Under the pieces are notes generated by a model. It saw only the letters and a list, made by a program, of their open reading frames with translations, was not told the DNA's origin and searched no databases. Positions 634 to 16,940 of a DNA stretch of 53,596 nt are shown piece by piece; position 1 is the stretch's first letter; each line of letters starts with the position of its first letter. The stretch is from a virus (taxonomy: Duplodnaviria; Caudoviricetes). A program made the position numbers and the translations under genes. The DNA is taken from positions 1 through 53,596 of the IMG/VR virus record IMGVR_UViG_3300025030_000023. One strand, written 5' to 3'.

Positions 634-648
634 CAGGGGCGCGGGTGG

Positions 649-912
649 TTACTCTGCCGGTTCGTAAGTGGCTGCGAAAATATCCGGTTTGCAAGGGTAA
701 AACTCGCCCTTAATCCCCTTAATAATCCAGTCGCCTTTGTCTGCTCTGTGTGTACCTTCAAGCGTCGGGATGGAAAGACTCCCATTCACCCAACTAGCCA
801 ACTCATTGCCTGGGCGGTAACCTTTGTTTATCCAGTGGAGCAAACCATAACTTTCAGCATCGTCGTTAAACTGATGCGCCTCTATCACTACCGGCTTTTT
901 TCTGAACTTCAT
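649..912 (-). CDS. Conserved phage protein (KFRKKPVVIEA...GEFYPCKPDIF family)
   Basis: Characteristic widespread phage motif. Confidence 0.8.
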   Translation of the reverse strand: MKFRKKPVVIEAHQFNDDAESYGLLHWINKGYRPGNELASWVNGSLSIPTLEGTHRADKGDWIIKGIKGEFYPCKPDIFAATYEPAE

Positions 913-949
913 TTTTTCCTACCCCTCTGTTATGGCTCTCGCCGTGATA

Positions 950-1067
950 GTTATTCTAGTTCCAAACCCTTTTCGTTTCTCTCTTCAGTGGAGATGCCCA
1001 CATCTCGGATGGGGTGCGCTAGAACTTGCCGCACCGTCTCCTTGCCCTTGCCATTGACAGACACTCA
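950..1067 (-). repeat. Dispersed element, subtype A
   Basis: TGAGTGTCTGTCA-N14-GAGACG-N14-AGCGCACCCCATCCGAG...GAAGAGAGAAACGAAAAGGGTTT...TAAC on the minus strand. Confidence 0.85.
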
Positions 1068-1071
1068 AGAA

Positions 1072-1341
1072 TCAATCATCCCATAACTGATGCTTCGAAC
1101 AAATTGCGTCCATGTCGGGCCTTCCACGATAAACACGCAACTCCCCGCCATCTTTGTAGACATGCTTGATGTACCGCTGGCCCGGCAGGATCTTGAACCC
1201 GTCCGTCTGCGCAGCAACATACCCTGGTACATCCTCATCCGGCAAGTCTTGGACACATGACCCGTTATGAAATACCCTTGACGCATCGCAGAAGTACTCT
1301 TTTTTAGCTCTTGGCTCAGATGCCTTTATCAAATCGCCCAC
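1072..1341 (-). CDS. Hypothetical protein (cargo between inverted elements)
   Basis: GTG start after GGAGG; open frame. Confidence 0.65.
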   Translation of the reverse strand: MGDLIKASEPRAKKEYFCDASRVFHNGSCVQDLPDEDVPGYVAAQTDGFKILPGQRYIKHVYKDGGELRVYRGRPDMDAICSKHQLWDD

Positions 1342-1360
1342 GGTCCATCCTCCCTGTTTT

Positions 1361-1466
1361 TTAGTGCCTGTCAGTGACCGCACCCCGCAAACACCGCACT
1401 CCGTTCCGGATGCACCCCTTGCGAGATAGCGGCATTGCGGTGAAGCTTCTCACCAAACGCCTTTGA
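1361..1466 (+). repeat. Dispersed element, subtype B (central box degenerate)
   Basis: TTAGTGCCTGTCA...GCACCCCTTGCGAG...TTCTCACCAAACGCCTTTGA; same 106-bp length as the 8287-8392 copy. Confidence 0.7.
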
Positions 1467-1537
1467 CTTTCCTACGCTCAACAGATAACCAGCAACCATA
1501 TCAGTATGAGCAAAAAGGTTGTCTCGGCTTCCACTGG

Positions 1538-2008
1538 CTATCCCTCCGTAGATGTAGGGGCAAGGGCTTCACGGGCGATGTCGGCTAAGCAGTGCTTATA
1601 CCACTCGGGGTGAACGGATATCCGGCATAAGGCTTTTCTGTATCTGTCCCTCTCCCCCTTCACCTCTTTCAGCTCCGCATAGATGGCGTCATGGGCGACT
1701 CACCATGTGTCGCGCTCAGCAATGGTCATTTCTAGTGTCTTCGCAAGAGTTCTTACGCACTCTTTCTGCCCATCAAGTTCGGACTCAGTTGCCTCAGCCC
1801 GTTCAACAAACGAATGGCCAACTGGACCATTGGCCCAATCCGTCACGAGGCTGTCAAAGTTGGCCCTTGACTGTGCCAACTCCCCCTCTACGGTAGAGAG
1901 TTGCTGGCGCAAAAATTCTATCTGTTCGGCGTGGCGCTCAATCAACCTGTTGGTTTTGGCGTTGAACTCGGCCTCAATTTCGGCTATGAGCTTGCCTGCG
2001 TTATCCAT
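1538..2008 (-). pseudogene. Coiled-coil protein interrupted by an in-frame TGA at 1700-1702
   Basis: Frame continues 53 sense codons past the TGA with coiled-coil character (ELKEVKGERDRYRKAL...IAREAL). Confidence 0.55.
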
Positions 2009-2030
2009 ACTTCCCTCCTTATCCCACATA

Positions 2031-2098
2031 GTTAAACATCTAAAATCATTCGTTTCTCCCCTCCGCGCAGCCGCCGACATGCTAGGTGGGGTGCTCCG
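2031..2098 (-). repeat. Partial (outer half) subtype A element
   Basis: GGAGCACCCCACCTAG...GGAGGGGAGAAACGAATGATTTT...TAAC on the minus strand. Confidence 0.6.
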
Positions 2099-2211
2099 AT
2101 ACTAATTTGTTAATGATATAAACTTCTTGGGCGTTACGGCTTTGCCGCCGCTCTGTCATGAACTGAGCCTCTGTGAGCCTCAGCCCTTCGGGTGACGGTC
2201 GCTAACGCTTA

Positions 2212-2970
2212 TCAGCCTATCAGCGTTTCCCATGCCAGTTTAACCACTGCTGGAACTTGGCCGTTTCCAGTTGCCGCAAGCCTGTCCACGATTGTGGCCA
2301 CAGCATCAAGAGTTCGTGCATCGTCGGACAAAGCCATCCGTCCTGCGTCCAGAGCTCGACCGCTGGTCTGAACCACATCAGACTTGACCCTACCGACGCC
2401 CCACTTGGTCGAGATTCTCTGCGTTCCTTTCGGCCCATTGTTGTTTTGCAGACTACTTTCAGACCATCGGTTTTGCATGGAGTCGGCCAAAATCCAGATG
2501 CGTTCGCGGAGGTGTCGTGCTCCAGCATCCGCTGCTGAAAACACTCCCCACCTAGCATTAAACCCCATCTCGGCCAAGTCTCCGAGAACCCTTCCAAGTC
2601 CCCTAGAAGTGAGAATTGGTGAGTTTTCCACGAAGACAAATCTTGGCTGTACCTCGCAAATGATCCTCGCCATTTCTCCCCAAAGTCCTTATCTTTTGCC
2701 TTCAATTCCTGCACCGGTCCCTGCACAACTAATGTCTTGGCAGGGAAACCCGCCAGAAACCACGTCAACAATGCCTCGCCACGGTCTGCCGTCAAAGGTG
2801 CAAACGTCATCCCAGACAGGGAAGGTGCCGAGAACGCCGTCATTCTGTCGCTGCATAAGTACGCTAGCGGCATAGGGGTCTCGTTCAACGGCACAGACGG
2901 TGCGCCATCCGAGAAGTTTGCCACCGAGTATTCCTCCACCAGCGCCTGCGAAAAGTGCCAACTCATTCAC
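2212..2970 (-). pseudogene. C5-cytosine DNA methyltransferase 1 (alpha chain) with an in-frame TAA at 2689-2691
   Basis: Motifs FAGAGG, GFPCQ, ENS, RERIW and GNGQVP all in one frame; reads GKR*GLW. Confidence 0.85.
2220..2966 (-). CDS. Nested out-of-frame beta subunit of methyltransferase 1
   Basis: 248-codon ORF inside the MTase; FWPTP and motif IX-like LCPTMHELLMLWPQSWT; parallels 9527-10048. Confidence 0.65.
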   Translation of the reverse strand: MSWHFSQALVEEYSVANFSDGAPSVPLNETPMPLAYLCSDRMTAFSAPSLSGMTFAPLTADRGEALLTWFLAGFPAKTLVVQGPVQELKAKDKDFGEKWRGSFARYSQDLSSWKTHQFSLLGDLEGFSETWPRWGLMLGGECFQQRMLEHDTSANASGFWPTPCKTDGLKVVCKTTMGRKERRESRPSGASVGSSLMWFRPAVELWTQDGWLCPTMHELLMLWPQSWTGLRQLETAKFQQWLNWHGKR

Positions 2971-3427
2971 TGGTTCTCCCCTCTGTCTCACTCGGCGGGG
3001 CGGATAGCGAAAGATACTCTTGATAGATGTTGGCGCGTTCATCACCTGTGACCATACAGGCATACAACGGATTGACAATATATGCACTACCCCCCTTGGC
3101 GCGAGGCCGCATAATGTCTTTCGCTATGAGCGTGGCTTTTATCTTCTTACAGTTGGCTAGTGAAACTTCGATCTCCCGTAAAATCTCTTCGGGGTCAAAG
3201 AAAACCAAATTATCCTTGCGCATATTGAGGACAAGAAACTGTATAACCTCATGCGTTGCACCTGACATCCCTTTAGGGAACATACGCCCTCTCCCGTTTT
3301 GGAACACCTTGTAAAAGATGTCCTGTAAGTATGGTGCAAACTCGGTAGCCATAAGGCTTTCACCGGTCTGCTCGTTAAAAACTTCCCTCTTTCCCTTGTA
3401 CTTCCATTTTGTGCGTTGGTTGTGCAT
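2963..3427 (-). CDS. RepL-like winged-HTH protein 1
   Basis: N-terminal EQTGE, HTH region, YIVNP motif; paralogue of 8942-9388. Confidence 0.7.
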   Translation of the reverse strand: MHNQRTKWKYKGKREVFNEQTGESLMATEFAPYLQDIFYKVFQNGRGRMFPKGMSGATHEVIQFLVLNMRKDNLVFFDPEEILREIEVSLANCKKIKATLIAKDIMRPRAKGGSAYIVNPLYACMVTGDERANIYQEYLSLSAPPSETEGRTSE

Positions 3428-3500
3428 GAGCCATATTACAAGATACGTCTGTATCCGTCAAGGATAAAATCGTATCCCGATAAGGTGTACTTTTGTATCC
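3428..3500 (-). promoter_or_regulatory. Sigma70-type promoter with three GGATAC repeats; probably leaderless mRNA
   Basis: TTGACG-17-TAATAT-5 nt-ATG; GTATCC on + strand at 3451, 3472 and 3495. Confidence 0.65.
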
Positions 3501-3528
3501 ACGGCACATAAGAATTACGGTGACTTAC

Positions 3529-3644
3529 GGGCCGCACTTCTTAGTCTAGTTCATACCCTTACTGTTGAACCTTTAGCCGGTGAGTTTTTGGCTTGGTTCA
3601 CCACACTTGAAAAGAGCTTTTGAATCTCCCAGATAAGGTTTTGA
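3529..3644 (-). repeat. 116-bp conserved element upstream of RepL-like gene 1
   Basis: Aligns nearly gap-free with 8712-8827 (shared TATCTGG, AAAAGC, GGTGA, CTAAAG-TTCA, GGTAT, AGACTA, GCGGCCC). Confidence 0.8.
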
Positions 3645-3646
3645 CT

Positions 3647-4171
3647 TTACCGCCTGCGTTCCAACATCTGATTATATTTCTCGTTCAGATTGGTAATTGT
3701 AGCCTCAACATCTATACCGTAGTGATTCCAGAACTCCCACCCCGTTAGCCTCGCTGACCCGTGATAGCTTCCTGGCAGCGCAGGAGTGCCACCCAGAGTA
3801 TGATGCCAACAGCATATAGGCAATGTGCGGTATGAGCTGCAAACACCGCCCTTTCGCCCTTCCTTGCGCTTATTTTGGTGATGACTTTGTGCGGGACCAC
3901 CGCAGATCAAGCACGGCAAACTGCGTATCCACGCCATGTACTTTTCATCGACAACAGGGACCTCTTTTATCTGCGCCCTCATCTCCGGTCGGCTATGATT
4001 GCCCGACATCCCCCCAAGGGAAGGCTTACCGCGCTCTGCTGGGGAGGGGGTATGAAGCCTTGCACATTTTCGGCGGCAGAACTGAGAGCGTAGCCGCTCC
4101 TTGTAGTCATCATCAGACTCGGCGTAATACTGGCCCTGTATGATTTCTATGCCGCAGTGTTTGCAGTTCAT
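3647..4171 (-). CDS. DUF968/HNH-like Zn-binding protein
   Basis: YMAWIRSLPCLICG...HH...LPICCWHH. Confidence 0.7.
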   Translation of the reverse strand: MNCKHCGIEIIQGQYYAESDDDYKERLRSQFCRRKCARLHTPSPAERGKPSLGGMSGNHSRPEMRAQIKEVPVVDEKYMAWIRSLPCLICGGPAQSHHQNKRKEGRKGGVCSSYRTLPICCWHHTLGGTPALPGSYHGSARLTGWEFWNHYGIDVEATITNLNEKYNQMLERRR

Positions 4172-4329
4172 CAGCCGTTGTCCCTGCCAGACATTGCCGC
4201 GCTGTGACAGTCTTCGCAGTAAGGACCAGTTTTAGCGCCGTCAATTTCCCATGTTAAATAAAGGCTGTCTTCGCCCTCGCCTGCTTTGCCTGTCGGGTAT
4301 CCGCAATTGATACATATTTCTTCTTCCAT
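4171..4329 (-). CDS. Small Zn-finger protein (52 aa)
   Basis: CINC...CEDC; GGAGGG RBS. Confidence 0.55.
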   Translation of the reverse strand: MEEEICINCGYPTGKAGEGEDSLYLTWEIDGAKTGPYCEDCHSAAMSGRDNG

Positions 4330-4413
4330 TATTCCCTCCCCCTTTTCAGTTGATCCAGATGAAACACCGCCACACTAAACGCGCTCCGCAGGTCACTTGC
4401 CCCTACTAGGGGT

Positions 4414-4743
4414 TTACGTTATCAGTAGGTCAATGCCATGTACTGACTTCATCAAGTGCATCTTGACGCGGAACACATCAGTCTGGACCCCTTTCACGTC
4501 CTCAACAACCGTCTTCCCTGTCGCATCATCAATGTAGACGAAATCAGCACAGTACCGCAGGGCTGGCTTACGCCTCCCATGCAGAACCACAGAAGGTGCC
4601 AAGATGAAAACCCGTTGGCGGTCTAATTCTCTGATCTTGCCCACTTTGTAAAGCATCTTCAAATCTTGCCACCGGCGTCCTTCCTTGGCTGAGTCAAACT
4701 TGATGCCATCTATTACCACCTTCTTGTTGCCGTACTTGGGCAT
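4414..4743 (-). CDS. DUF1064 family PD-(D/E)xK endonuclease
   Basis: KYGNKK..IDGIKFDSAKE, YCADFVY, VEDVKG. Confidence 0.85.
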   Translation of the reverse strand: MPKYGNKKVVIDGIKFDSAKEGRRWQDLKMLYKVGKIRELDRQRVFILAPSVVLHGRRKPALRYCADFVYIDDATGKTVVEDVKGVQTDVFRVKMHLMKSVHGIDLLIT

Positions 4744-4769
4744 CTATTCCTCCAGTAAAGGGTGGTGTG

Positions 4770-5486
4770 CTAGGCTATCTGCTTATGAGCTACAGGAACG
4801 AGAGACTTGCCTATCAAATCGGCATAGCTTTCGACCCTTTTCTTTGCCAGAATATAAATCTCTTTGTAGTGCAACCCTTGGTCCATACCATCCCTCAGGG
4901 CTTTCATTACAACTTGGTCAGCACTTTTGACTGTGGAAAGCTGATGAAGGTCTAGTAGGTTGCGGATGTTTTTGTACTTCTGCTCCAAAAGGAACAGGGC
5001 CTTGTTCTCCATCGTGGTCAGTGTGATGTAATACTTCGCCGCATTCATGCTGCCTTGCGCTGTGGCGTAGTCAGTGAAGTTTTTGATGGTATCAGTGGTG
5101 AGCAATCGCGTTTCCTTGCCAAGCTTGCGCTGCTCCAACCATTCAGCGTTCTGATGCATAGCCGCAAGCTGTGACAGTCGCCGTTCCATCTGGTTGAAGG
5201 CGTCAATGTATTGCAGCTTAAACTCAAGAGCTTTCTTGCCAGTGAAACCCATTGCCAATAAACTGAAGCCGTCACGGTTCATGGTAAACATGACCTGAAG
5301 CCTCTGCTGCTCGTTGAGATACGTTGACTCCCCAAAAATGGGGAGACGTTCCGGCGGCAGTTCGCCCATTAGTTTTCTGATATCGCGGATAACATGGTCA
5401 TGGCGTTTGCCGAAAACTTCAGCCACGATCAAGCTAGTGGTTTGCGCCTCCTCGCGCTGTATCGTCACTAACTGTTGCACTGTCAT
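4770..5486 (-). CDS. rha: Rha family regulatory protein 1
   Basis: TSLIVAEVFGKRHDHVIRDI...MNRDGFSLLAMGFTGKKALEFK. Confidence 0.9.
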   Translation of the reverse strand: MTVQQLVTIQREEAQTTSLIVAEVFGKRHDHVIRDIRKLMGELPPERLPIFGESTYLNEQQRLQVMFTMNRDGFSLLAMGFTGKKALEFKLQYIDAFNQMERRLSQLAAMHQNAEWLEQRKLGKETRLLTTDTIKNFTDYATAQGSMNAAKYYITLTTMENKALFLLEQKYKNIRNLLDLHQLSTVKSADQVVMKALRDGMDQGLHYKEIYILAKKRVESYADLIGKSLVPVAHKQIA

Positions 5487-5680
5487 GCCACGTCTCCTAT
5501 CTTCTTGGGCTCAACTTCCAGAGCCGCCGCCAGTTTCTTGAGCACACCAAGTGACACAGCACCCCCTTTCTCTGCATGGCAGATGGTGGGGACCGACACC
5601 CCTGACTTCTCTGCCAAGTCTTGCTGTGTGAGGAAGTTCTCGGCCCGAAGCCGTCGCAAGTCTTTAATATGATATTCCAT
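5483..5680 (-). CDS. XRE/Cro-like HTH regulator
   Basis: LRRLR...LTQQDLAEKSGVSVPTI...KLAAALEV. Confidence 0.85.
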   Translation of the reverse strand: MEYHIKDLRRLRAENFLTQQDLAEKSGVSVPTICHAEKGGAVSLGVLKKLAAALEVEPKKIGDVA

Positions 5681-5853
5681 GTACACCTCCGTTTTGTTTC
5701 GTCCAATATACATGACCCCACGCTAGAGTCAAGGTTTTTATCTACGATCGACCAAAAGATATTTCTTGCCTTTATGCAAACTTTGTCCTTTACAACCCCC
5801 TCCCTCCGTGCTAAATTTGCCCCATCAGACAGACCAACTAAAGGAGGGATAAG
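5681..5853. promoter_or_regulatory. Divergent promoter region
   Basis: Strand switch; TTGACT-16-TATATT (minus) and TTTACA-17-TAAATT (plus). Confidence 0.5.
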
Positions 5854-6171
5854 ATGGACACCATGCATAAACGTACAATGAAGTTCAACGGCAACGAGAT
5901 AGTTTTCACTGATACCCCTAACTGCGGCATAGCCGGTATCGCCAATGACCAACCCGAAGAGTTGGCGGAAGAGATTGTCAATCGCTGGAACCAACACACA
6001 TGCGGCGTCGGCATGTACGGTGAAACTCCCCGCGTCCAGATCGGCAAGTTTTCCCTTTGCCGCCAGGATGACAACAGCGTGTGGTTAGAAATCGAAGGTG
6101 AGGAAGGCCAGCAGATTGGCGATGCTGTTATGGAAGCCGACTTGCAGGAAATCTTTGACAAGAGATTTTAG
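5854..6171 (+). CDS. Hypothetical early protein
   Basis: AAGGAGG RBS; AEEIVNRWN motif. Confidence 0.7.
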   Translation: MDTMHKRTMKFNGNEIVFTDTPNCGIAGIANDQPEELAEEIVNRWNQHTCGVGMYGETPRVQIGKFSLCRQDDNSVWLEIEGEEGQQIGDAVMEADLQEIFDKRF

Positions 6172-6179
6172 GGGGAACC

Positions 6180-6428
6180 ATGACCTACTCGGACAAAAGA
6201 ACACTGGTAGCGTTTCTCGGCATCATGCAGCACTCGCGGGACTACTCGCAACGGAAGATGGCAGATTACAGGAAGATAGCTGCAACGGTAGAGAACGACC
6301 TTGACCGCGACCTTGCCAACAGGATGAAAGCCAGATACGAGGCGAAGTCGGAAACGGCGGAAGAATTTATTGAAGATTTCATGGAGCTGTACGCCGAAGA
6401 GTTGGGGGAGTTGTCCAATGGCGAATAA
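6180..6428 (+). CDS. Hypothetical protein
   Basis: RBS; operon spacing. Confidence 0.65.
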   Translation: MTYSDKRTLVAFLGIMQHSRDYSQRKMADYRKIAATVENDLDRDLANRMKARYEAKSETAEEFIEDFMELYAEELGELSNGE

Positions 6429-6468
6429 CGAATTTAGCTGTGCCGTGAGGCACGAGCGGGTGTTAAAC
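6423..6468 (+). mobile_element. Minimal attC-like site
   Basis: TAAC...GCTGTGCC-GTGA-GGCAC-G-AGC...GTTAAAC; stem with an extrahelical G. Confidence 0.55.
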
Positions 6469-6481
6469 CCGCAAGGAGGGG

Positions 6482-6949
6482 GTGGTGGCGATTAGGATCA
6501 GGACTGTCAATGGCGTAACGGTAGCATTATGCGCCGTCGAATCTGATGAACGGCAAGGAGATATCTACCTGGACGATGGGGCACACCATGCCCTTTCAAC
6601 CAAATTCGGTCTTGATTTTCACTCAATGGGGTACTTGGACAATCCACGGGCGGACCCTCTCGTTGTTGAAGTTATGGCTACGCAGAAAGTAAGAGATGCC
6701 GAGGAAGAACATAATCTTTGGGAAAGGGAAAGGAATGCCTGTCGCAGAGGCGGTGCGGCCACGATAGAGATCATCAAAATCCTGTGGGGCGGATTGCTCT
6801 GCTTCGCTGGCATCCACGACGGAGCGCCTGATGGCGACTGGCTCACCTGTGACCGTTGCGGCGACAAGATGCCGATGTCTCGCATCATCCCGCTAGGGGC
6901 TGATGCACGGAAACAGGCCAAAGAGTACAGGGACAGAGAGTCGGTTTAA
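6482..6949 (+). CDS. Hypothetical protein, cassette 1 cargo
   Basis: Stop codon lies in the R'' box GTTTAAC. Confidence 0.65.
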   Translation: MVAIRIRTVNGVTVALCAVESDERQGDIYLDDGAHHALSTKFGLDFHSMGYLDNPRADPLVVEVMATQKVRDAEEEHNLWERERNACRRGGAATIEIIKILWGGLLCFAGIHDGAPDGDWLTCDRCGDKMPMSRIIPLGADARKQAKEYRDRESV

Positions 6950-7030
6950 CGGATGGCGCATGAGGCGCACCAACCCGCGCCAGCTTGCGCAAACTATCAC
7001 ACACCAGCCGCCTCGATGCGCTGGTTACAC
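6944..7030 (+). mobile_element. attC: Integron attC site (87 bp)
   Basis: R'' GTTTAAC, L'' CGCATGAGG, L' CCTC-G-ATGCG, R' GTTACAC. Confidence 0.8.
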
Positions 7031-7051
7031 AAGCACAAAGGAGATTATGCA

Positions 7052-7888
7052 ATGAAATGCTTTTATCACAGTGCAGACCTGGACGGGCAATGCAGCGGGG
7101 CTATCGTGAAGATGGTCAACCCTGAGTGCGAGATGATCGGCATCAATTACGGTGACACTTTCCCCTGGGAGAAGATCGACCAGGGCGAGACGGTGTTCAT
7201 GGTGGATTTCTGCCTCCAGCCGTTCTCTGACATGCTGCGCCTTCAGGAGTTGGCGGATTTCATCTGGATCGACCATCACAAAACCTCGCTGGAAGCTGCG
7301 GAGGGGTCCGGCTTCAACATGGTCAATGCGCTGCTGGAAATCGGACGGGCGGGCTGTGAACTGACTTGGCAGTGGTTCCATGAGGCGGATGTCTTTCTAC
7401 CCCGCACCGTTTTCCTCCTGGGACGCTATGACGTGTGGGACCACCACAACCACGCCGGCGCGCTGGAGTTCCAGTACGGGATGAGGAATGTTGGCGACAC
7501 GAGGCCCGACAACCAGTGGCTCTGGCAAAACCTCTTTAACCATGCCGGAGATGTCGAGGATATCATCGGAAAGGGCGGGGCTCTTCTCGCCTACGAGGAA
7601 CGGAACAACGAGATGTACGTCAAGTCCTGCGCCTTTGAGACGGAACTGGACGGCCTGCGCTGCATCGCCGTGAACAAGGGGCTGACGAACTCGCTGTTGT
7701 TCAAGTCGGTCTATGACCCGGCGAAACATGACGCCATGCTTTCTTTTGTTCGTCGCCCTGGTAAGTGGACTTGCTCCCTTTACGCCGACAAGCCGGAGGT
7801 GGACGCCTCGGCGATCTGCAAGGCTCGCGGTGGTGGCGGTCACAAGGGCGCGGCGGGGTTCCAGTGCGAGACGCTGCCGTTTGTGTAA
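7052..7888 (+). CDS. DHH/DHHA1 phosphoesterase (nanoRNase-like), cassette 2 cargo
   Basis: YHSADLDG, MVDF, IDHHK, GGGGHKGAAGF. Confidence 0.9.
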   Translation: MKCFYHSADLDGQCSGAIVKMVNPECEMIGINYGDTFPWEKIDQGETVFMVDFCLQPFSDMLRLQELADFIWIDHHKTSLEAAEGSGFNMVNALLEIGRAGCELTWQWFHEADVFLPRTVFLLGRYDVWDHHNHAGALEFQYGMRNVGDTRPDNQWLWQNLFNHAGDVEDIIGKGGALLAYEERNNEMYVKSCAFETELDGLRCIAVNKGLTNSLLFKSVYDPAKHDAMLSFVRRPGKWTCSLYADKPEVDASAICKARGGGGHKGAAGFQCETLPFV

Positions 7889-7974
7889 CTATTTACTATC
7901 TAGCCGCGTGGCGGCATATCGCGCAAGGGCGATCAACGGGATTATCCTGTGATAGCCGCCACATAGCTGAGATA
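7883..7974 (+). mobile_element. attC: attC site with R' lost
   Basis: R'' GTGTAAC; TATCT-AGC / GCT-G-AGATA and GTGGCGGC/GCCGCCAC arms; no terminal GTT. Confidence 0.6.
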
Positions 7975-8286
7975 ATGAAAACGCAAATACCGCCACAGGA
8001 GTCACCATTGATCTGTCCAAACTGCAGCTCAGACGACTACCACCGCAACGGCTACGCTGGCACCACCCGCTGCAACTATTGCGGCTACGACGCCAAACTT
8101 CCCCACATCCGCCCCGTTCTCTTCGTGGGACCACAGAGGGTAGTTGACGCAACGTGGCTAGCGGAGCAGGCGGAGTATATCGCGGAGCACGGGTATGGGT
8201 GCTGCGGAAGTAGGACAATTGGGCAGCACATGTACGACTGCCGACAGCAGCCGAGAGAGTATAGGACTATTAGACGCCGTGGATAA
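7975..8286 (+). CDS. Zn-ribbon hypothetical protein
   Basis: CPNC...CNYC; start codon uncertain. Confidence 0.5.
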   Translation: MKTQIPPQESPLICPNCSSDDYHRNGYAGTTRCNYCGYDAKLPHIRPVLFVGPQRVVDATWLAEQAEYIAEHGYGCCGSRTIGQHMYDCRQQPREYRTIRRRG

Positions 8287-8392
8287 TCAAAGGCTTACGG
8301 GGAGACAGAGCGCCAGAGCCTCCCACTGCACAGGTAGGGGCGCTCCGTGACACTGGCACCGTCTCCCTGCTACATTAACTGACAGGCACATG
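8287..8392 (-). repeat. Dispersed element, subtype B
   Basis: GTGCCTGTCA-N14-GAGACG-N15-AGCGCCCCTACCTGTG...TCTCCCCGTAAGCCTTTGA on the minus strand. Confidence 0.85.
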
Positions 8393-8408
8393 GGCCAGGG
8401 GGGGAAGT

Positions 8409-8657
8409 ATGAAGTGGATAAAAACAGCAGAACAGTTACCGGAGTTGGGCGAGTTGGTCGCAGTGATAAATGTTGATACTTTGCAGAACTCTCACACCGG
8501 CAACTATCCGGTAGGTAGGCTCGGCTACTTGGCAGAGTTTGGCGATAAATACTGGTCATGCTACGGGGAACGCGCCGACCGGCTGGAAGCCTACACCCAC
8601 TGGTGTGCTCTCCCTGCAATGCCCACAGAATTTACCAGCCAGTTTGACACTGAGTAA
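8409..8657 (+). CDS. DUF551-like protein
   Basis: MKWIKTAEQLPE...THWCALP. Confidence 0.8.
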   Translation: MKWIKTAEQLPELGELVAVINVDTLQNSHTGNYPVGRLGYLAEFGDKYWSCYGERADRLEAYTHWCALPAMPTEFTSQFDTE

Positions 8658-8711
8658 TCTAACCCCGTCTCCGGCTCCGCTGGAACGGGCAGCATAGGAT
8701 TAGAGGATAAT

Positions 8712-8827
8712 TCAAAGGCGTATCTGGAAAAGTTAAAAGCGTTCTAGAAGCGGGGTGAGTCAAAACCAGTGGTCAAACTAAAGATTCAGCATTACAGGTA
8801 TAATAAAGACTAGAGACAACGCGGCCC
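8712..8827 (+). repeat. 116-bp conserved element upstream of RepL-like gene 2
   Basis: Homologous to 3529-3644 (minus). Confidence 0.8.
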
Positions 8828-8862
8828 CTTTGTAACGATTGCAGATACTTAGGGGCCAGCTT

Positions 8863-8941
8863 TTTATCACCCGTGCGTACTTTCTTTATCACCCATGATA
8901 AAAAGCGTTGCAATGGTGATAAATAGGTAGTAATATGCTTC
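8863..8941 (+). promoter_or_regulatory. Iteron/operator repeats and promoter; probably leaderless mRNA
   Basis: TTTATCACCC at 8863 and 8885, inverted GGTGATAAA at 8915; TTGCAA-17-TAATAT-5 nt-ATG. Confidence 0.7.
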
Positions 8942-9388
8942 ATGCGTAATTCAAGACGAGTTTACAAATATTCAGGTTCAAAAGAGACAGTAGACGTGAA
9001 GACCGGAGAGGTCGAACGGGCAGTTTTAGTCAAACAGAAAATTCAAGATATTAACTTCATCAAAATCTTTTTACCAGAGAGGGGATATCGTATGTACCCA
9101 AAGGAAATGAACCAGTCGGCTAGGGACTTGCTCGATTACTTGTGTGTGGTGATGGATAAGCAAAACATCGCCATTGCACCAGTTGCCGAGATACAGGAGA
9201 GGATGGACCTTTCCACCGCATCCATTGCAAGGGCCAAGCTACAACTTATGGAAATGGATTTTATTCGCCAGCGTACTCCGCACGTTTATATGGTGAATCC
9301 CGGCCATGCCTGTAAATCAGCCGGCGACGATAGGCAAACCGTTTACGAAGCATATTCCATGCTACCCCATAAGCTCAAAGAGAAATGA
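8942..9388 (+). CDS. RepL-like winged-HTH protein 2
   Basis: VDVKTGEV, FIKIF, HTH, YMVNP. Confidence 0.75.
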   Translation: MRNSRRVYKYSGSKETVDVKTGEVERAVLVKQKIQDINFIKIFLPERGYRMYPKEMNQSARDLLDYLCVVMDKQNIAIAPVAEIQERMDLSTASIARAKLQLMEMDFIRQRTPHVYMVNPGHACKSAGDDRQTVYEAYSMLPHKLKEK

Positions 9389-10104
9389 ATGTCCTAGACC
9401 TGTTCAGTGGAATAGGGGGATTCTCGCTAGGGTTGGAACGGGCGGGGATGAAAACAGTGGCGTTTTGTGAGATAGAACCATATCCACAGGCGGTATTGAG
9501 AAAGAACTTTCCAGGAGTACCAATTTATGACGATGTGCGAACAATCTCAGCAGAGCGGCTGGCAACAGATGGAATTGGGCGCGTTGATCTTGTCTGCGGC
9601 GGTTTTCCCTGTCAGCCGTTTTCCAATGCTGGGAAGCGAAGAGGCAAAGATGATGACCGTTTCCTCTGGCCGGAAATGCTCCGCATTGTGCAGGAGTTCC
9701 AGCCCACTTGGGTCATTGGTGAAAATGTTGCTGGTTTCATCGACATGGCACTCTGCGATGTGTCATTTGACTTGGAAGCCGCAGGTTACGAAGTCCAATC
9801 GCTTGTTATTCCAGCTTGTGCCGTCGGACTCCCGCACCGGAGAGATCGTGTCTGGATTATGGCCCACAATCAGGAAAAGCGGCCAATCAAGGGCATGGAA
9901 AGCGTACCAAAGGGAAGACTACCACGGGAATTTGGAAGAGTGGATTTCAACTCGTGGGAAAACTGGCTGGATTCTACCGTTGTTACCACAGAATATGCAG
10001 GGATACCCCCTTGGTTGGGCGAGCTTGAGTGTTACGGAAATACCGTGACCCCGCTTATTCCTGAGATCATCGGTAACATCATTATGGAGATAGAAGGGTT
10101 CTGA
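9385..10104 (+). CDS. dcm: C5-cytosine DNA methyltransferase 2 (alpha chain)
   Basis: DLFSGIGG, GFPCQPFS, ENV, RDRVW, GNTVTP; motif IX absent. Confidence 0.92.
   Translation: MNVLDLFSGIGGFSLGLERAGMKTVAFCEIEPYPQAVLRKNFPGVPIYDDVRTISAERLATDGIGRVDLVCGGFPCQPFSNAGKRRGKDDDRFLWPEMLRIVQEFQPTWVIGENVAGFIDMALCDVSFDLEAAGYEVQSLVIPACAVGLPHRRDRVWIMAHNQEKRPIKGMESVPKGRLPREFGRVDFNSWENWLDSTVVTTEYAGIPPWLGELECYGNTVTPLIPEIIGNIIMEIEGF
9527..10048 (+). CDS. Nested out-of-frame beta subunit of methyltransferase 2
   Basis: 173-codon ORF; GLWPT and motif IX-like ILPLLPQNMQGYPLGW. Confidence 0.65.
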   Translation: MTMCEQSQQSGWQQMELGALILSAAVFPVSRFPMLGSEEAKMMTVSSGRKCSALCRSSSPLGSLVKMLLVSSTWHSAMCHLTWKPQVTKSNRLLFQLVPSDSRTGEIVSGLWPTIRKSGQSRAWKAYQREDYHGNLEEWISTRGKTGWILPLLPQNMQGYPLGWASLSVTEIP

Positions 10105-10216
10105 GTGCCTGTCCGCCACCCGCAGCGAGGAGACGCCGCCAGTGATCCAGCGCGACCCTACCCGTGAAAATGGCGACTCCGCAGAAGTGAAAAACGTAAT
10201 GTTTACAGCAGTTAAC
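10102..10216 (+). repeat. Dispersed element, subtype A
   Basis: TGAGTGCCTGTCC-N15-GAGACG-N13-AGCGCGACCCTACCCGTG...GAAGTGAAAAACGTAATGTTT...TAAC. Confidence 0.85.
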
Positions 10217-10235
10217 CAGCAGAGAGGGGGAGAGT

Positions 10236-10970
10236 ATGACAGATACGCCGATAGGACTAGCAAAAATGAGGGAGGCTTTTCTGCCGAATCAGATCAGCAA
10301 ACTTTGCCGGTCTACGAAGAAGGATAACCCTAAAGGAAGCTGCAACGTGTGCGGCGGCTATCACGGCAAACCATCCATCGCGCTTGACTACGTGGGCCAT
10401 GCGGCACTGACCGACAGGCTACTTGACTGCGACCCCCTTTGGACGTGGGAGCCGCTATCGCTGGACCCTACCGGCTCGCCACTTCTGGACCGTGACGGTG
10501 GCATGTGGATTAAGCTAACCGTGTGCGGGGTGACTCGCTTTGGCTACGGTGATGCACAAGGCAAGTCAGGCGGGGATGCCATGAAGGAGCGTATCGGTGA
10601 CGCTTTGCGGAATGCTGCAATGAGATTCGGCGCGGCTCTTGACCTCTGGCACAAGGGTGATCTTCACGTTGAGGAAGATGAGCCGAAAGCAAAGCCAGCA
10701 AAAGAACCAGTCAAGGCTAAAACGCTATCCGAGGACCAGATCAAATACTTCCCCCGCATCAAGGCCGCGCTAGATACCCTCCACGGCACCGATGTTGCGG
10801 CGAAGAAGGCAACCATTAAGGCTAACACCGCCATGCCCGCTAAAGACACGTATCCGCCGCGTGAGGGTGTAGAGGACTACCGCACACTTGACGGCAAACG
10901 GATTGAGTACTTGGCCCACGCATTAGAGGGGCTGGCGAAGAAGAAAGAAGCCAACAACCCGCCCGAATAG
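10236..10970 (+). CDS. Rad52/Sak-like single-strand annealing protein
   Basis: LDYVGHAALTDRL, LTVCGVTRFGYG, GDALRNAAMRFGAALDLW. Confidence 0.8.
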   Translation: MTDTPIGLAKMREAFLPNQISKLCRSTKKDNPKGSCNVCGGYHGKPSIALDYVGHAALTDRLLDCDPLWTWEPLSLDPTGSPLLDRDGGMWIKLTVCGVTRFGYGDAQGKSGGDAMKERIGDALRNAAMRFGAALDLWHKGDLHVEEDEPKAKPAKEPVKAKTLSEDQIKYFPRIKAALDTLHGTDVAAKKATIKANTAMPAKDTYPPREGVEDYRTLDGKRIEYLAHALEGLAKKKEANNPPE

Positions 10971-10988
10971 GGCCACGGAGGGAAGGGG

Positions 10989-11252
10989 ATGAAACCGTCA
11001 GACTTCACAAAGACGCCGATTGCAGAGGCAACGCAGATACCAACTAAGGGCCAGTTTGTCCAGATACTCCGCGACCGCTTTTGGGCCGTGTCAGAGGACG
11101 ATTGCATACTCACCTACAAGGGAAGCAGCCCCCAATGTAATGATAACGAGGGAATCGTGGAGCGGATCATAAAAGGCGACCACCACCCCGGCGTCAAGGT
11201 CCAGTTTATTCCTCTAGTGTTCTTGCCACACGACTGCCGCGACTACGTTTAA
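10989..11252 (+). CDS. Hypothetical protein
   Basis: RBS; operon context. Confidence 0.65.
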   Translation: MKPSDFTKTPIAEATQIPTKGQFVQILRDRFWAVSEDDCILTYKGSSPQCNDNEGIVERIIKGDHHPGVKVQFIPLVFLPHDCRDYV

Positions 11253-11323
11253 GGAGACCCCATGACCACCCAAGAGATAGCCACACAGGACGGAGAGCAA
11301 ACATTCTATTATCAGGAGGAAAC

Positions 11324-12061
11324 ATGCAAACACCGCAGGAGAGAGCCAAGGAACTAGCCGTAGCACATTGGTATGGATATGTAGAGGACACCGTCTCAGT
11401 ACACATGCCCGACCGCAACCGCACATACACTAGAGACGAGGTGCTGGCTATCGCAAAACACCACTACATCAGCGCATCGTGCCACGGATACAAGCACGCC
11501 ATTTCCGACGAACGTGCAGGCATCTTCCGCCCCCGTATCGGGGAACTGTCGGCGGTAGAGGTGGAGGCGATCGGCGGGGAGGTGGGCTTATGCGGGATGT
11601 GTAGGTCAGACCACTGCGAGGACTCCTACCCTACTGAGACATCATGTTCCAGTTATGTCCCGGCTATCGAAAGCCTCGCCCCTCTCGACCTCTCCCTCCC
11701 CTCTATCACGTTGCCAGGAACGGAGCATGATGTGTGGGCCAAATACCATGAAGAACTAGAAGAGTGTCGCAGAGAGCGCCCGTATTCTATGGGTTTTCTA
11801 GTGGAACGCTGGGACGTGCTACAGGCGCTTCAAACTCACAAGGAACGCGGGGGGCATAGCCCTGAAACTTATGCCACCGTTGCGCGGGATCTGGAAGACA
11901 TGCACGCAGGTGGTATGCCAGTTATGGAGGCGAAGCGGCAGATGATTTTGAAGAACGCCACCCGTATGCGGCCTACTGTCGGAGGTGAATGTACCGGCTA
12001 CTACGCCCCCGAAGTCTGCGCCCGTATCCTCGCCACCTCCGGCGCATCCTTCACCCCATGA
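11324..12061 (+). CDS. Hypothetical protein
   Basis: AGGAGG RBS; 245 codons. Confidence 0.7.
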   Translation: MQTPQERAKELAVAHWYGYVEDTVSVHMPDRNRTYTRDEVLAIAKHHYISASCHGYKHAISDERAGIFRPRIGELSAVEVEAIGGEVGLCGMCRSDHCEDSYPTETSCSSYVPAIESLAPLDLSLPSITLPGTEHDVWAKYHEELEECRRERPYSMGFLVERWDVLQALQTHKERGGHSPETYATVARDLEDMHAGGMPVMEAKRQMILKNATRMRPTVGGECTGYYAPEVCARILATSGASFTP

Positions 12062-12213
12062 GCAAGCCAACAGGGACGTGGCAACCCACCGCCTGCGCCG
12101 ATTGCCGCGTCCCTTTCACCACTAAGAGCGTCTACGTGGCCGACTCTGGCGCAGATGGCAAATTCGATTTCTATTGCTGGCGATGCTGGCTGAAAAGGAG
12201 GGGGTATGAGTAA
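12058..12213 (+). CDS. Small Zn-finger protein
   Basis: CADC...CWRC; ATGA coupling. Confidence 0.5.
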   Translation: MSKPTGTWQPTACADCRVPFTTKSVYVADSGADGKFDFYCWRCWLKRRGYE

Positions 12214-12583
12214 GGAGCCGCAGCACCCAACGCTGTATATCCGGACCATTTCCGATGGTGGCAAAGTGACATATCGGGAATATTCTGGGGCCGTCGCTGT
12301 TGTTGACCACACACCGAAGATTGCCGAAGACCTCAAGGCATCAGAGTTCGACGCAGCCGAGACAATCACATGGGCTGTGGCCCTCGCCATGACTCAACTG
12401 ATGATCTTGCGGAAACAGTTACCAGAACACGCGAGAAACGCCCGTAAGATCAAAGCGGTCGAAGAGTCTATCTACGACCTTGCCAAAGGCCACGGTAAGC
12501 CGCTGTCGGATGAAATGGTTGATTACGTGATAGGATGCTGGAATTCCACTATGCAACGCGTGCAAGCGGGGTTAGAGCCATGA
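12206..12583 (+). CDS. Hypothetical protein
   Basis: AGGAGG RBS. Confidence 0.7.
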   Translation: MSKEPQHPTLYIRTISDGGKVTYREYSGAVAVVDHTPKIAEDLKASEFDAAETITWAVALAMTQLMILRKQLPEHARNARKIKAVEESIYDLAKGHGKPLSDEMVDYVIGCWNSTMQRVQAGLEP

Positions 12584-13146
12584 GCCTCGCCGCCACCATC
12601 TGCCCATCTTGCCAGAAGAACCCCCGCCCCTTTGGTCGCCAAAAGTGTGACCCGTGCGTTGAGGCTGCAAAGGTCGCCAGGGTAGCCAAGTACAACGAGT
12701 TGAAGCGGCAACAGCGTGCCTCCGCTGGTCCAAGGATGGAGCCTTGCCGATGCGGGTGTGGCGTCATGGTCGCATACCCTTACAGATACACGGTGGAGTG
12801 CGGAGAAACCGCGAAGGGTGCCAGGGCGAGGGCCAAGGCAAAGGAGTCGAAAAATGCGCGGCTGTCTTGCCCCAAGGTTGCCAAAGAGGATATTGCCCCG
12901 CCGCCCTTGGTGACCGACGAAGAGCAGACCGCAATCAATGAGGAGTCGCTACGCCGCGAAGCCGCGAGGGTAGACCGCATCTATCGGGAAATGGGACTTA
13001 CCTCCGCCAAGGGGCGTCAACTGGCATCCGAACCGCGCAGCCTCGCCCCTGAGGAGATAACCGCCATAGCGCACACCATCAAACCCCCGCGCCACTATCG
13101 GGATACGCTGGCGCCGTATGCGGTGGGGTGTCAGGCGGGGAGATAA
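12580..13146 (+). CDS. Cys-rich hypothetical protein
   Basis: CPSC, CDPC, CRCGCG; ATGA coupling. Confidence 0.65.
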   Translation: MSLAATICPSCQKNPRPFGRQKCDPCVEAAKVARVAKYNELKRQQRASAGPRMEPCRCGCGVMVAYPYRYTVECGETAKGARARAKAKESKNARLSCPKVAKEDIAPPPLVTDEEQTAINEESLRREAARVDRIYREMGLTSAKGRQLASEPRSLAPEEITAIAHTIKPPRHYRDTLAPYAVGCQAGR

Positions 13147-13165
13147 TATTGCCATAGGAGGGCAA

Positions 13166-13372
13166 ATGTCCAAGCAGAAAGAACACCCCATCCTCAACCA
13201 TCCCCGCACCGCTGGCCGCTGTCCCAAGTGTAACCACCGGAGCGGCTACCAGCCGCAGTGCGGCCCCATGCCCCCCGGCGAACACTGTCCCGTTTGCGGC
13301 TGGCACGACTTCGATATGGTGGCCATGAAAGAGCCGGATTGGGACGCGATGCCGGATACGAGGAGGGGATAG
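13166..13372 (+). CDS. Small Zn-ribbon protein
   Basis: CPKC...CPVCG; RBS. Confidence 0.6.
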   Translation: MSKQKEHPILNHPRTAGRCPKCNHRSGYQPQCGPMPPGEHCPVCGWHDFDMVAMKEPDWDAMPDTRRG

Positions 13373-13375
13373 TTG

Positions 13376-13549
13376 TTGACAGTACCGGCGAAATGGGATA
13401 GTGTCGCCCCACAATTTGATAGTGATTCGTCGGCCATGGCGAATTGCTCACGATAGTCCTCCCCCTCTTAACTTCTAGCCGTCGTTGCGCGGGGGAGGAT
13501 GAACAGCCCACACCCAGGATGGCCCCTGAGTGTGGGCGTTTTTTATTTT
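13376..13549 (+). ncRNA. Promoter plus three-hairpin leader ending in an intrinsic terminator (kissing-loop leader 1)
   Basis: TTGACA-17-TAGTGT; loops GGCCAT (13432) and ATGGCC (13519); T-tract follows. Confidence 0.7.
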
Positions 13550-13559
13550 GGAGGGGTGG

Positions 13560-14945: not shown

Positions 14946-14946
14946 C

Positions 14947-15186: not shown

Positions 15187-15243
15187 ATTTGCCTTGCTCT
15201 ATTCGGGTTCGTATAGTATATTCATGGCAAGGAGGGTTTACCC

Positions 15244-16714: not shown

Positions 16715-16727
16715 CCCCACTTCCCCC

Positions 16728-16912: not shown

Positions 16913-16940
16913 GTGCTATGTAGTTGCAAAGGAGCGGCAA

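What the first reader, a model, noticed from the sequence alone, without database searches (positions are those of the whole stretch)
6423..7974. Integron gene-cassette array inside a phage with no integron integrase
Seen: three attC-like sites. Each cassette's leading core is the exact reverse complement of its own trailing R'' box: GTTAAACC (6462) with GGTTTAAC (6943), and GTTACACAA (7024) with TTGTGTAAC (7881). Stop codons fall within the TAAC boxes, and the L''/L' arms carry an extrahelical G. Known: this offset complementarity is the signature of IntI-mediated insertion of circular cassettes at G|TT. Inference: the phage uses a host IntI and a minimal 46-bp attC-like landing site to acquire early genes; the last attC has lost R', fixing the DHH cassette.
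Basis: partly seen in the sequence, partly recalled or inferred. Interest (0 to 1): 0.82.

Follow-up and report, generated by a model that had tools for sequence, protein, structure and literature searches.

The report
Reversed integron-type gene cassettes in phage
Two early genes of this phage sit in swappable integron-type gene cassettes, each with its folded recombination site ahead of the gene rather than behind it, and the phage has no integrase of its own; phage cassette arrays are already published, but this back-to-front layout is unusual.

Summary
The two core pairs, the TAA stops inside the TAAC boxes and the bulged G are all real. The window alone could be chance: such a two-pair chain turns up about once per 600 kb of phage DNA.

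Relatives settle it. The phage that holds the homologous DHH gene (G001) has four consecutive genes flanked the same way. A third phage (L088) has two. Three more phages (L182-L184) carry arrays of sites 93-94% identical to 6426-6488.

A covariance model built only from class 1 integron attC sites scores those array-mates at 17-30 bits; held-out true attC sites score 29-37. The window's own sites score weakly: 11.5 bits at 6944-7030 and 7.7 bits at 6423-6468. All hits lie on the strand antisense to the genes.

So there are two cassettes, not three. Each attC precedes its gene. The stretch 7889-7974 is flank, not a decayed attC.

No integron integrase is found in any of the 8 phage records, and no tyrosine recombinase at all in this complete genome. 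Which recombinase acts is therefore inferred, not shown.

Clusters of attC sites in phages are published (Qi et al. 2023). This scan has also noted similar reversed arrays on other DNA.

The parts
6423..6468 (-). attC-type site A (46 nt), belonging to cassette 1. Read on the - strand: R'' GTTTAAC, a 3-bp stem, a bulged C, a 5-bp stem, a 4-nt loop, then R' GTTATTC.
   Evidence: Model R3 scores it 7.7 bits, E 0.84 within 2.6 kb, full length, - strand. It is 93-94% identical to sites in L182 and L184, whose array-mates score 19-30 bits. Fold (z -2.6). The stem covaries across 6 distinct family members.
6429..6949 (.). Cassette 1 as inferred: site A plus the ORF. Crossover points are inferred at AA|C, 6428|6429 and 6949|6950.
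   Evidence: Its ends are 8 nt complementary: GTTAAACC 6462 and GGTTTAAC 6943. The exact crossover position is inferred from integron biology, not shown.
6485..6949 (+). ORF of 154 aa (155 aa from GTG 6482) with no known family. It is a mosaic: the N-terminal half is shared with other phages.
   Evidence: No Pfam or PHROG match. Positions 6485-6708 are 88% nt identical to L001. The start at 6485 is inferred from the homology starts in L001 and L002.
6944..7030 (-). attC-type site B (87 nt), belonging to cassette 2. Read on the - strand: R'' GTGTAAC, L'' CAT-C-GAGGCG, a long loop, L' CGCCTC-ATG, R' GTTAAAC.
   Evidence: Model R3 scores it 11.5 bits, full length, - strand. It is the best hit in 5800-8400 (E 0.065) and fifth of 7 hits in the 86 kb.
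6950..7888 (.). Cassette 2 as inferred: site B plus the DHH gene.
   Evidence: Its ends are 9 nt complementary: GTTACACAA 7024 and TTGTGTAAC 7881. The homologous gene in G001 is flanked by its own, different 9-nt pair.
7052..7888 (+). DHH-family phosphoesterase gene (278 aa).
   Evidence: phrog_4771, E 4e-37. Pfam DHH at 19.7 bits, below the 28.1-bit cut-off. 76% aa identity to L003/G001 and 73% to a Nitrospira MAG locus, L041. No sequence match in the PDB.
6426..6429 (+). Left junction of the array: the stop codon TAA of gene 6180-6428 plus C. On the - strand this is the G|TT of site A's R'.
   Evidence: Metagenome contigs that carry a site-A copy diverge from the window exactly here (loose ends before 6426 and 6427).
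7881..7889 (+). Right end of the array: the trailing box of cassette 2, containing the DHH stop codon. The inferred junction is at 7888|7889.
   Evidence: No attC-type site follows it.
7889..7974 (.). Long imperfect hairpin in the flank. It is not an attC and its role is unknown.
   Evidence: Fold -16.3 kcal/mol, z -2.2. It contains no GTT, gets no model hit and is not terminator-like.

Best explanation
Window 6429-7888 is a short array of two integron-type gene cassettes, inserted right at the stop codon of the early gene 6180-6428 of a complete phage genome with terminal repeats.

Each cassette consists of a folded attC-type site followed by one gene:
- cassette 1: site A plus a 154-aa ORF;
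- cassette 2: site B plus a DHH phosphoesterase gene.

The genes run antisense to the canonical attC top strand. Each gene ends on a TAA that is the complement of the conserved G|TTA.

I infer, but have not shown, the following:
- The cassettes were captured, and can be excised as circles, by single-strand recombination at G|TT on the - strand (AA|C on the + strand).
- This explains why the two ends of each cassette are complementary: in the circle they form the R-box stem.
- The enzyme is supplied in trans, most likely an integron integrase of the unknown host, because the phage has no tyrosine recombinase.

Shown here: the site anatomy, the complementary cassette ends, family membership through near-identical sites in other phages, and the strand.
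For: 1. Anatomy at the stated coordinates is confirmed.

2. Replication in other phages.
- G001 shares only the DHH ORF with window 1-20000 (7052-7881 at 73% nt).
- Yet it has four consecutive genes whose ends are complementary: GTTATAGCGCAC/GTGCGCTATAC (with a 1-nt indel), and exact pairs of 9, 9 and 10 nt.
- L088 has two cassettes with 8-nt pairs.
- Over 9 cassettes from the three phages, the true lead-trail pairing is the single best of all 362,880 possible pairings.

3. The DHH homologues carry different but each self-complementary end boxes: GTTACACAA/TTGTGTAAC in the window against GTTATAAAT/ATTTATAAC in G001.

4. Site A has a family.
- Copies 93-94% identical occur in L182 and L184, and a 77% copy in L183. 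No window protein matches these loci.
- The inner stem differs completely between members yet always pairs, with the bulged G kept in place: GTGCC/GGCAC, CACC/GGTG, GACGGC/GCCGTC, CAGCG/CGCTG.
- One outer stem shows a double change, GCT/AGC to GTT/AAC.

5. Test with a model of true attC sites.
- Model R3 was built from 10 class 1 integron attC sites.
- It finds both held-out true sites, at 37.0 and 28.6 bits.
- In L182-L184 (27 kb) it scores 30.3, 25.2, 21.7, 19.4, 19.2 and 17.3 bits (E from 2e-6 to 0.014) at regularly spaced intergenic sites.
- In window+G001+L088 (86 kb) its five best hits of 7 are cassette junctions (four I had delimited, plus a TAAC..GTTA interval listed), all full length and all on the - strand.
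- In 5800-8400 the two best hits are exactly sites B and A.

6. Polarity.
- In 8 of 9 cassettes the longest open frame lies on the strand opposite the model hit.
- In true integrons the hits lie on the gene's own strand (with 43, 64).

7. No IntI over the cut-off in 0 of 8 phage records. No PF00589 match in the window.
Against: - The window's own sites score only 11.5 and 7.7 bits. A control of 90 kb of other phage loci gave 13.7 and 11.4 bits. By score alone they are therefore not distinguishable from noise; the case rests on position, strand and family.
- My model is home-made from 10 clinical attC sites. It is not IntegronFinder's model.
- The GTTAAACC/GGTTTAAC pair of cassette 1 is the family consensus.
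- DNA homology between the two DHH cassettes stops at the ORF ends and their attC sites are unrelated. The gene may have moved by ordinary recombination rather than as a cassette.
- No empty site was seen, and no excision junction at 6428|6950, 6949|7889 or 6428|7889 among the metagenome contigs. Contigs cannot show absence.
- The spacers beside the L box are 4 and 7 nt (site A), or 5 and 8 nt (site B as the model aligned it). The clinical sites I harvested have 5 and 5-6 nt.
- The host and its integrase are unknown.
Confidence: 0.7

Rival explanations
1. The cassette architecture is the same, but it is served by a different tyrosine recombinase rather than an integron integrase. This could be a Xer-like enzyme of the host or of related phages. 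It would be a parallel, phage-centred cassette system that only resembles attC.
For: - No IntI in 0 of 8 phage records.
- The sites are short: 44-50 nt against 57-133 nt for the 12 clinical sites.
- A GTTAT core is preferred in G001 and L088.
- The genes are reversed relative to the site.
- The window, G001 and L088 sites score weakly with the model.
- Earlier notes of this scan report Xer-like genes beside such arrays. These are leads only and were not checked here.
Against: - A model trained only on class 1 attC sites reaches 30.3 and 25.2 bits on array-mates of site A. That is the same range as held-out true attC sites.
- The bulged base sits 3 bp into L'', as in aadA1, cmlA1 and aac(6')-IIc.
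- No recombinase gene lies beside any of the six arrays I looked at. Only ordinary phage integrases were found, about 45 kb from the array in G001 and at the end of the record in G008.
Confidence: 0.2
2. Three attC sites each follow their gene (canonical polarity), the 46-nt site is a landing site, and the third site has lost its R'.
For: - The stops lie in the TAAC boxes, as in many canonical cassettes (aadA1 shown).
- In L088 a third site follows the second cassette.
Against: - All model hits are on the - strand. Where both strands hit, the + strand is weaker; for example L184 3114-3159 scores 30.3 on its + strand (antisense to the genes) against 15.4 on its - strand.
- There is no hit and no GTT at 7889-7990.
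- In both the window and G001 the last gene's trailing box is followed by no site, while a site precedes the first cassette.
Confidence: 0.05
3. Chance inverted 8- and 9-mers lie next to ordinary intergenic hairpins, such as RNA processing sites or terminators. On this view there is no cassette biology.
For: - Two-pair chains occur about once per 600 kb of phage DNA.
- GTT-anchored pairs are not enriched genome-wide.
- The hairpin z-scores are modest: -2.6 for site A and -1.4 for site B.
Against: - The permutation result is 1 of 362,880.
- The pattern is replicated in five other phages.
- The stems covary.
- The true-attC model hits the family.
- There is no terminator-like site at either hairpin. 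Two were found in 5600-8500, elsewhere, against 2.4 expected.
Confidence: 0.03

Closest known systems
CALINs (clusters of attC sites lacking an integron integrase) in bacteriophage genomes. Source: Qi, Rajabal, Ghaly, Tetu and Gillings 2023, PMC9892861. I read the abstract and sections 2.1 and 3.4.
   Same: - There are two or more attC-type sites within 3-4 kb bounding single genes, inside a phage with no integron integrase.
- The cassettes carry accessory genes.
- That paper showed IntI1 recombining 5 of 6 tested phage attC sites.
   Different: - Here the genes run antisense to the attC top strand in 8 of 9 cassettes examined.
[quoted passage not shown] Its main text holds no passage on reversed genes (term search).
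- The sites here are 44-50 nt in the site-A family.
- These are uncultivated phages from metagenomes, and nothing here is tested at the bench.
Cassette arrays of sedentary chromosomal integrons with homogeneous attC sites.
   Same: - Near-identical attC sites are attached to unrelated genes. Site A has copies in four phage records, and one 44-nt site body occurs twice in G001.
- R-box complementarity lies between the two ends of each cassette.
   Different: - There is no integrase and no attI next to the array.
- The arrays are 2-5 cassettes long and lie in phage early regions.
- The genes are reversed.
Isolated cassettes inserted at non-att genomic sites (attG). Source: Loot et al. preprint 10.1101/2022.09.11.507474. 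I saw the abstract and the section list only.
   Same: A cassette array sits outside any integron platform, apparently inserted at a plain G|TT. Here that is the complement of the TAA|C at the stop of gene 6180-6428.
   Different: That work concerns bacterial chromosomes and experimental insertions by IntI. Here the target is a phage genome and the insertion event is only inferred.

Membership tests
Integron attC recombination site | Inverse core boxes R'' (ending AAC) and R' (G|TTRRRY, as written in PMC9892861 section 3.4) at the two ends of the site. | tested here: met
   Read on the - strand, site A has GTTTAAC ... GTTATTC and site B has GTGTAAC ... GTTAAAC. AAC and GTT are invariant. Positions 5-7 depart from RRRY in part.
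Integron attC recombination site | An imperfect inner inverted repeat (L''/L') with an extrahelical base in L'' three pairs in from the spacer. This is what I saw in aadA1, cmlA1 and aac(6')-IIc. | tested here: met
   On the - strand, site A reads GCT-C-GTGCC / GGCAC-AGC and site B reads CAT-C-GAGGCG / CGCCTC-ATG. The spacers differ: 4 and 7 nt (site A) or 5 and 8 nt (site B), against 5 and 5-6 nt.
Integron attC recombination site | A significant score with a covariance model of true attC sites. | tested here: inconclusive
   The window sites score 11.5 and 7.7 bits. Noise in control phage DNA reaches 13.7 bits. Near-identical twins of site A score 11.4 bits, but their array-mates score 30.3, 25.2, 21.7, 19.4, 19.2 and 17.3 bits. 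Held-out true attC sites score 37.0 and 28.6 bits. The model is my own, built from 10 sequences; it is not IntegronFinder's.
Integron attC recombination site | Structure is conserved while sequence varies (covariation in the stems). | tested here: met
   Four unrelated inner stems and one double change in the outer stem occur among 6 distinct members of the site-A family. This was read by eye; MAFFT columns were too shifted for the count of structure pairs.
Integron gene cassette | The first bases of a cassette are the reverse complement of the R'' of its own attC. This is the signature of excision and insertion at G|TT. | tested here: met
   The runs are 8 and 9 nt in the window, and at least 7 nt in 8 of 9 cassettes. 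The true pairing is the unique best of 362,880 pairings.
Integron gene cassette | The ORF is on the same strand as the attC top strand, with the attC downstream of the ORF (the usual bacterial layout). | tested here: not met
   The longest open frame is opposite to the model strand in 8 of 9 cassettes. In the window both genes are on + and both sites on -.
Integron gene cassette | Recombined by an integron integrase (IntI). | not testable with these tools
   This needs an attC x attI assay or an excision assay.
CALIN | At least two attC sites close together (within 3 kb in PMC9892861 section 2.1) and no integron integrase nearby. | tested here: met
   The two sites lie 476 nt apart. There is no TIGR02249 match in the whole 53,596-nt genome. 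This holds only if the sites are accepted as attC.
Complete integron | An IntI gene with attI next to the array. | tested here: not met
   no match in the window.
Intrinsic terminator hairpins | A G+C-rich stem followed by a T run. | tested here: not met
   One search gives no terminator-like site at 6437-6459, 6956-7021 or 7897-7972.

The most novel reading that the evidence does not exclude
Phages of one groundwater and sediment community, and others elsewhere, keep their own pool of miniature attC cassettes in inverted orientation. They shuffle early accessory genes, possibly counter-defence genes such as the DHH phosphoesterase, from phage to phage. They do this by borrowing the integron integrase of whatever host they infect. 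Integrons would then be a gene-exchange network shared by bacteria and their viruses, and the inverted layout would be an adaptation that lets phage early transcription read through the array.
Probability: 0.3. Interest if true: 0.8.

Novelty: new variant of a known kind. Interest (0 to 1): 0.58.

Why it matters
Integron cassettes are a main route by which bacteria trade accessory genes, including defence genes. If phages hold working cassettes without an integrase, they can both carry cassettes between hosts and use the host's integrase to re-equip themselves.

The back-to-front layout is consistent across six phage records here. It is not discussed in the main text of the one paper on phage CALINs that I could read. 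It would bear on two questions: how such cassettes are expressed, and which DNA strand folds during infection.

The finding also gives concrete, testable sites. These are the two in the window and stronger ones in L182-L184.

Tried and rejected
**Database searches that gave nothing**
- Rfam: 0 matches at gathering thresholds over the window. In 5700-8500 there was only a chance-level ClpQY_promoter hit at E 3. I saw no attC family among Rfam's answers.
- blastn of 5800-8400 against 50,697 phage records: no match.
- Relatives of the flanking proteins in viral contigs: 0 for 6180-6428, 0 for 7975-8286, and 1 distant hit for 5854-6171. No syntenic relative was available, so no empty-site comparison was possible.
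- The RecT-like neighbour of the L088 array gave 80 loci, but apart from L088's own contig (L092) none was closer than 60%. No presence/absence variant was found. I used part of this set as background.
- DHH against PDB sequences: no match.

**Steps that found mostly noise**
- The pattern search GTCCACNGNNCTGGTTAT returned 17 stretches. Only G001 and L088 hold real sites. The other 15 stretches are matches without the TAAC..hairpin context, apparently inside coding sequence.
- DHH flanks were inspected in 6 loci. Only the window and L003 had GTTA-anchored pairs. L041 (73% aa) sits in a compact operon with none, L012 is cut off, and L013 and L014 have none.

**Models and alignments**
- Models R1 and R2 were too narrow. 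R2 missed 2 of 7 held-out true attC sites (arr-2, dfrA17) and scored the phage sites at 13 bits or less.
- The MAFFT alignment of the two site subfamilies was not structurally consistent. I therefore did not run the count of structure pairs or fold_alignment, and give the covariation as read by eye.

**Metagenome contigs (Logan contigs only; runs X1-X4 may be the source)**
- No joint at the predicted cassette boundaries. Contigs cannot show absence.
- A joint 6473->7971 ('skips 1497, between: not known', sides 20-25 nt) and a joint 6472->6740 (sides 19-22 nt) were seen.
- Loose ends lie before 6426/6427, behind 6472/6473 and behind 7995.
- I read these as copies of site A, and of a 25-nt piece 7971-7995, in other genomes of the same community. 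I do not read them as an empty site. The short sides make this weak.

**Ideas dropped**
- I considered TTAA-type target duplication, IS200/IS605-like ends, and a gene inserted into a palindrome. I dropped all three because the flanks are inverted, not direct, and differ between cassettes.

**Tools and files closed**
- Supplementary tables of PMC9892861 were closed. They may list gene orientation relative to attC.
Full report
**What the window is.** The window is a complete virus record of 53,596 nt with direct terminal repeats.
- The finding lies in the early region.
- A Rha-like gene (4770-5486) and an HTH repressor-like gene (5483-5713) are on the - strand.
- Then, on the + strand, come ORFs 5854-6171, 6180-6428 and 6482-6949 (no family).
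- They are followed by a DHH phosphoesterase (7052-7888; phrog_4771, E 4e-37) and a zinc-ribbon ORF (7975-8286).
- Next come DUF551, a RepL-like gene and a C5 methyltransferase.
- There are no tRNAs and no Rfam match.

**The observation.**
- The three stops are TAA followed by C.
- The hairpins at 6437-6459 and 6956-7021 each have one bulged G in the 3' arm on the + strand.
- The third 'attC' is not there. 7890-7990 contains no GTT and no model hit falls there.

**Is the window alone more than chance?** Only weakly.
- The pairs are not among the 25 longest of 99 inverted pairs in the region.
- GTT-anchored 8-mer inverted pairs number 50 genome-wide, against a mean of 46 per anchor.
- A chain of two GTTA-anchored pairs separated by 20-125 nt occurred twice (L078, L080) in about 1.25 Mb of unrelated phage loci. 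That is roughly 0.09 per genome of this size, before asking that all boxes be intergenic.
- A scan of very many windows would meet such chains by chance.

**Relatives with the same layout.** The DHH gene has a 76% aa relative in a viral contig (L003, in record G001).
- G001 shares nothing else with window 1-20000 at the DNA level, and the homology stops at the ORF ends: 7052-7881.
- Yet the G001 gene is flanked by its own pair, GTTATAAAT/ATTTATAAC.
- Its neighbours are flanked likewise: GTTATAGCGCAC/GTGCGCTATAC (1-nt indel), GTTATGCCA/TGGCATAAC and GTTATGCTGA/TCAGCATAAC.
- Between successive genes lies xATAAC, then 37-110 nt rich in hairpins, then CTGGTTATx. One 44-nt body occurs twice, identically.
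- A motif search found the same site type in L088, 91% identical over 54 nt to a G001 site. It has two more cassettes: GTTATCGG/CCGATAAC and GTTATTTT/AAAATAAC.
- Over the 9 cassettes of the three phages, the true pairing of leading and trailing boxes is the single best of all 9! = 362,880 pairings.

**Site A has a family.** A structural pattern taken from site A found three more viral contigs.
- They share no protein with the window, but they hold copies of 6426-6488 at 93-94% (L182, L184) and 77% (L183), in arrays.
- Among 6 distinct members the outer stem and the bulged G are kept.
- The inner stem is GTGCC/GGCAC, CACC/GGTG, GACGGC/GCCGTC or CAGCG/CGCTG.
- One member changes GCT/AGC to GTT/AAC.
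- This is the hallmark of a site recognised by shape.
- It also shows that GTTAAACC/GGTTTAAC is the family's consensus R box. One L183 cassette departs from it on both sides: GTTAAACGG with CCGTTTAAC.

**Test against true attC sites.** Rfam gave no attC match, so I built my own model.
- I took attC sites from class 1 integron arrays in ten plasmid stretches.
- I built models stepwise. The final model, R3, rests on 10 sites.
- It finds both held-out true sites (aac(6')-Ib3 at 37.0 bits, arr-2 at 28.6 bits), with noise in those loci at or below 10.1 bits.
- On L182-L184 (27,151 nt, filters off) it gave 19 hits at E up to 10. The best were 30.3, 25.2, 21.7, 19.4, 19.2 and 17.3 bits, at regularly spaced sites on one strand per contig. 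The twins of site A scored 11.4 bits.
- On window+L062+L088 (86,311 nt) it gave 7 hits. The best five (14.7, 14.6, 12.9, 12.8, 11.5 bits) are all cassette junctions, full length, on the - strand. The next hits are 9.4 bits.
- In 5800-8400 alone, the best two of 5 hits are site B (11.5 bits, E 0.065) and site A (7.7 bits, E 0.84), with the predicted ends.
- Against this, a control of 89,852 nt of other phage loci gave 13.7 and 11.4 bits.
- The window's scores are therefore not significant by themselves. Position, strand and kinship to high-scoring sites carry the argument.

**Polarity.** In true integrons the model hits lie on the gene's strand (with the annotations). Here they lie on the opposite strand.
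- In 8 of 9 cassettes the longest open frame is opposite to the hit.
- Read on the - strand, the bulged base lies in L'' three pairs in, as in aadA1, cmlA1 and aac(6')-IIc.
- In the window and in G001 a site precedes the first cassette and none follows the last.
- So each site belongs to the gene on its right.
- The cassettes are 6429-6949 and 6950-7888.
- The array sits between the stop codon of gene 6180-6428 and 7889.
- L088 is ambiguous on this point. A third site is followed by a gene flanked by an 18-nt direct repeat.

**The recombinase.**
- TIGR02249 is over its cut-off in 0 of 8 phage records.
- The window has no PF00589 match at all.
- G001 and G008 have ordinary phage integrases far from their arrays.
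- The Nitrospira MAG that holds a 73% DHH relative has no true IntI: best 86.5 bits against a cut-off of 265.
- That MAG is not shown to be the host. Action in trans by a host integron integrase is inference.

**Metagenome contigs.** Six rows (four possibly the source) from three studies of groundwater and sediment hold the stretch.
- Laid contigs show copies of site A with other DNA on both sides, diverging at 6426/6427 and at 6472/6473.
- This fits a shared attC type in that community.
- No excision junction was seen. These are contigs with short sides, so this is weak either way.

**Comparison with what is known.** Qi et al. 2023 (PMC9892861; abstract and sections 2.1 and 3.4 read) screened 10,705 phage genomes.
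- They found 17 CALINs and showed IntI1 recombining 5 of 6 phage attC sites. The kind is therefore known.
- Their main text has no passage on reversed genes.
- Loot et al. (preprint; abstract only) show cassette insertion at non-att genomic sites, which is a plausible route into a phage genome.
- Two literature searches turned up no paper on inverted phage arrays.
- Earlier notes of this scan describe similar reversed arrays on other DNA. I had reached the reversed reading from array ends before that look-up, and I tested it here independently.

**Caveats.**
- The model is home-made.
- Covariation was read by eye.
- No empty site or excision product was seen.
- The two DHH cassettes have unrelated attC sites.
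- The host is unknown.

Noticed in passing
window 7889-7974: An 86-nt imperfect hairpin (about 25 pairs with bulges; -16.3 kcal/mol, z -2.2) lies between the DHH stop and the zinc-ribbon ORF. It is not an attC and not terminator-like. It sits where an attI-like entry site would lie in the reversed array.
   Followed up: partly
window 6485-6949: The 154-aa ORF is a mosaic. Positions 6485-6708 are 88% nt identical to L001, where the ORF ends soon after. Metagenome contigs break at 6708-6744, and one joins site A directly to 6740.
   Followed up: partly
window 7971-7995: A 25-nt piece covering the start of the zinc-ribbon ORF recurs in several metagenome contigs, which then diverge at 7995. In one of them a stop codon follows directly, and then a new ribosome-binding site and ATG.
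   Followed up: no
window, whole genome: This is a complete genome with terminal repeats, repressor- and Rha-like genes and a RepL-like gene, but no tyrosine recombinase (I did not search for serine recombinases). It may persist as a plasmid-like prophage.
   Followed up: no
L062 10069-10186 and 11846-11963 (G001): Two long sites of about 115 nt enclose the ribosome-binding site and the first 50-80 nt of the next ORF in their loop. The gene start therefore lies inside the recombination site.
   Followed up: partly
L088 5237-5254 and 5713-5730: An 18-nt direct repeat that includes the ribosome-binding site flanks gene 5254-5718, just after the third site. This looks like a gene gained or lost by a mechanism other than attC recombination.
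   Followed up: no
L182 (reverse complement) about 1080-1105: There is a remnant of a site-A type attC with the hairpin deleted, between two genes of one cassette. It is probably a decayed site that fused two cassettes.
   Followed up: no
L100 1838-1874 (- strand): A 37-nt stretch with GGCTAAC ... GTTGGAC ends scores 13.7 bits with the attC model, in an unrelated phage locus used as a control. It may be noise or another mini site.
   Followed up: no
L041 (Nitrospira MAG contig): A DHH homologue (73% aa) sits in a compact operon without any flanking hairpin or core box. The gene therefore also exists outside cassettes.
   Followed up: partly
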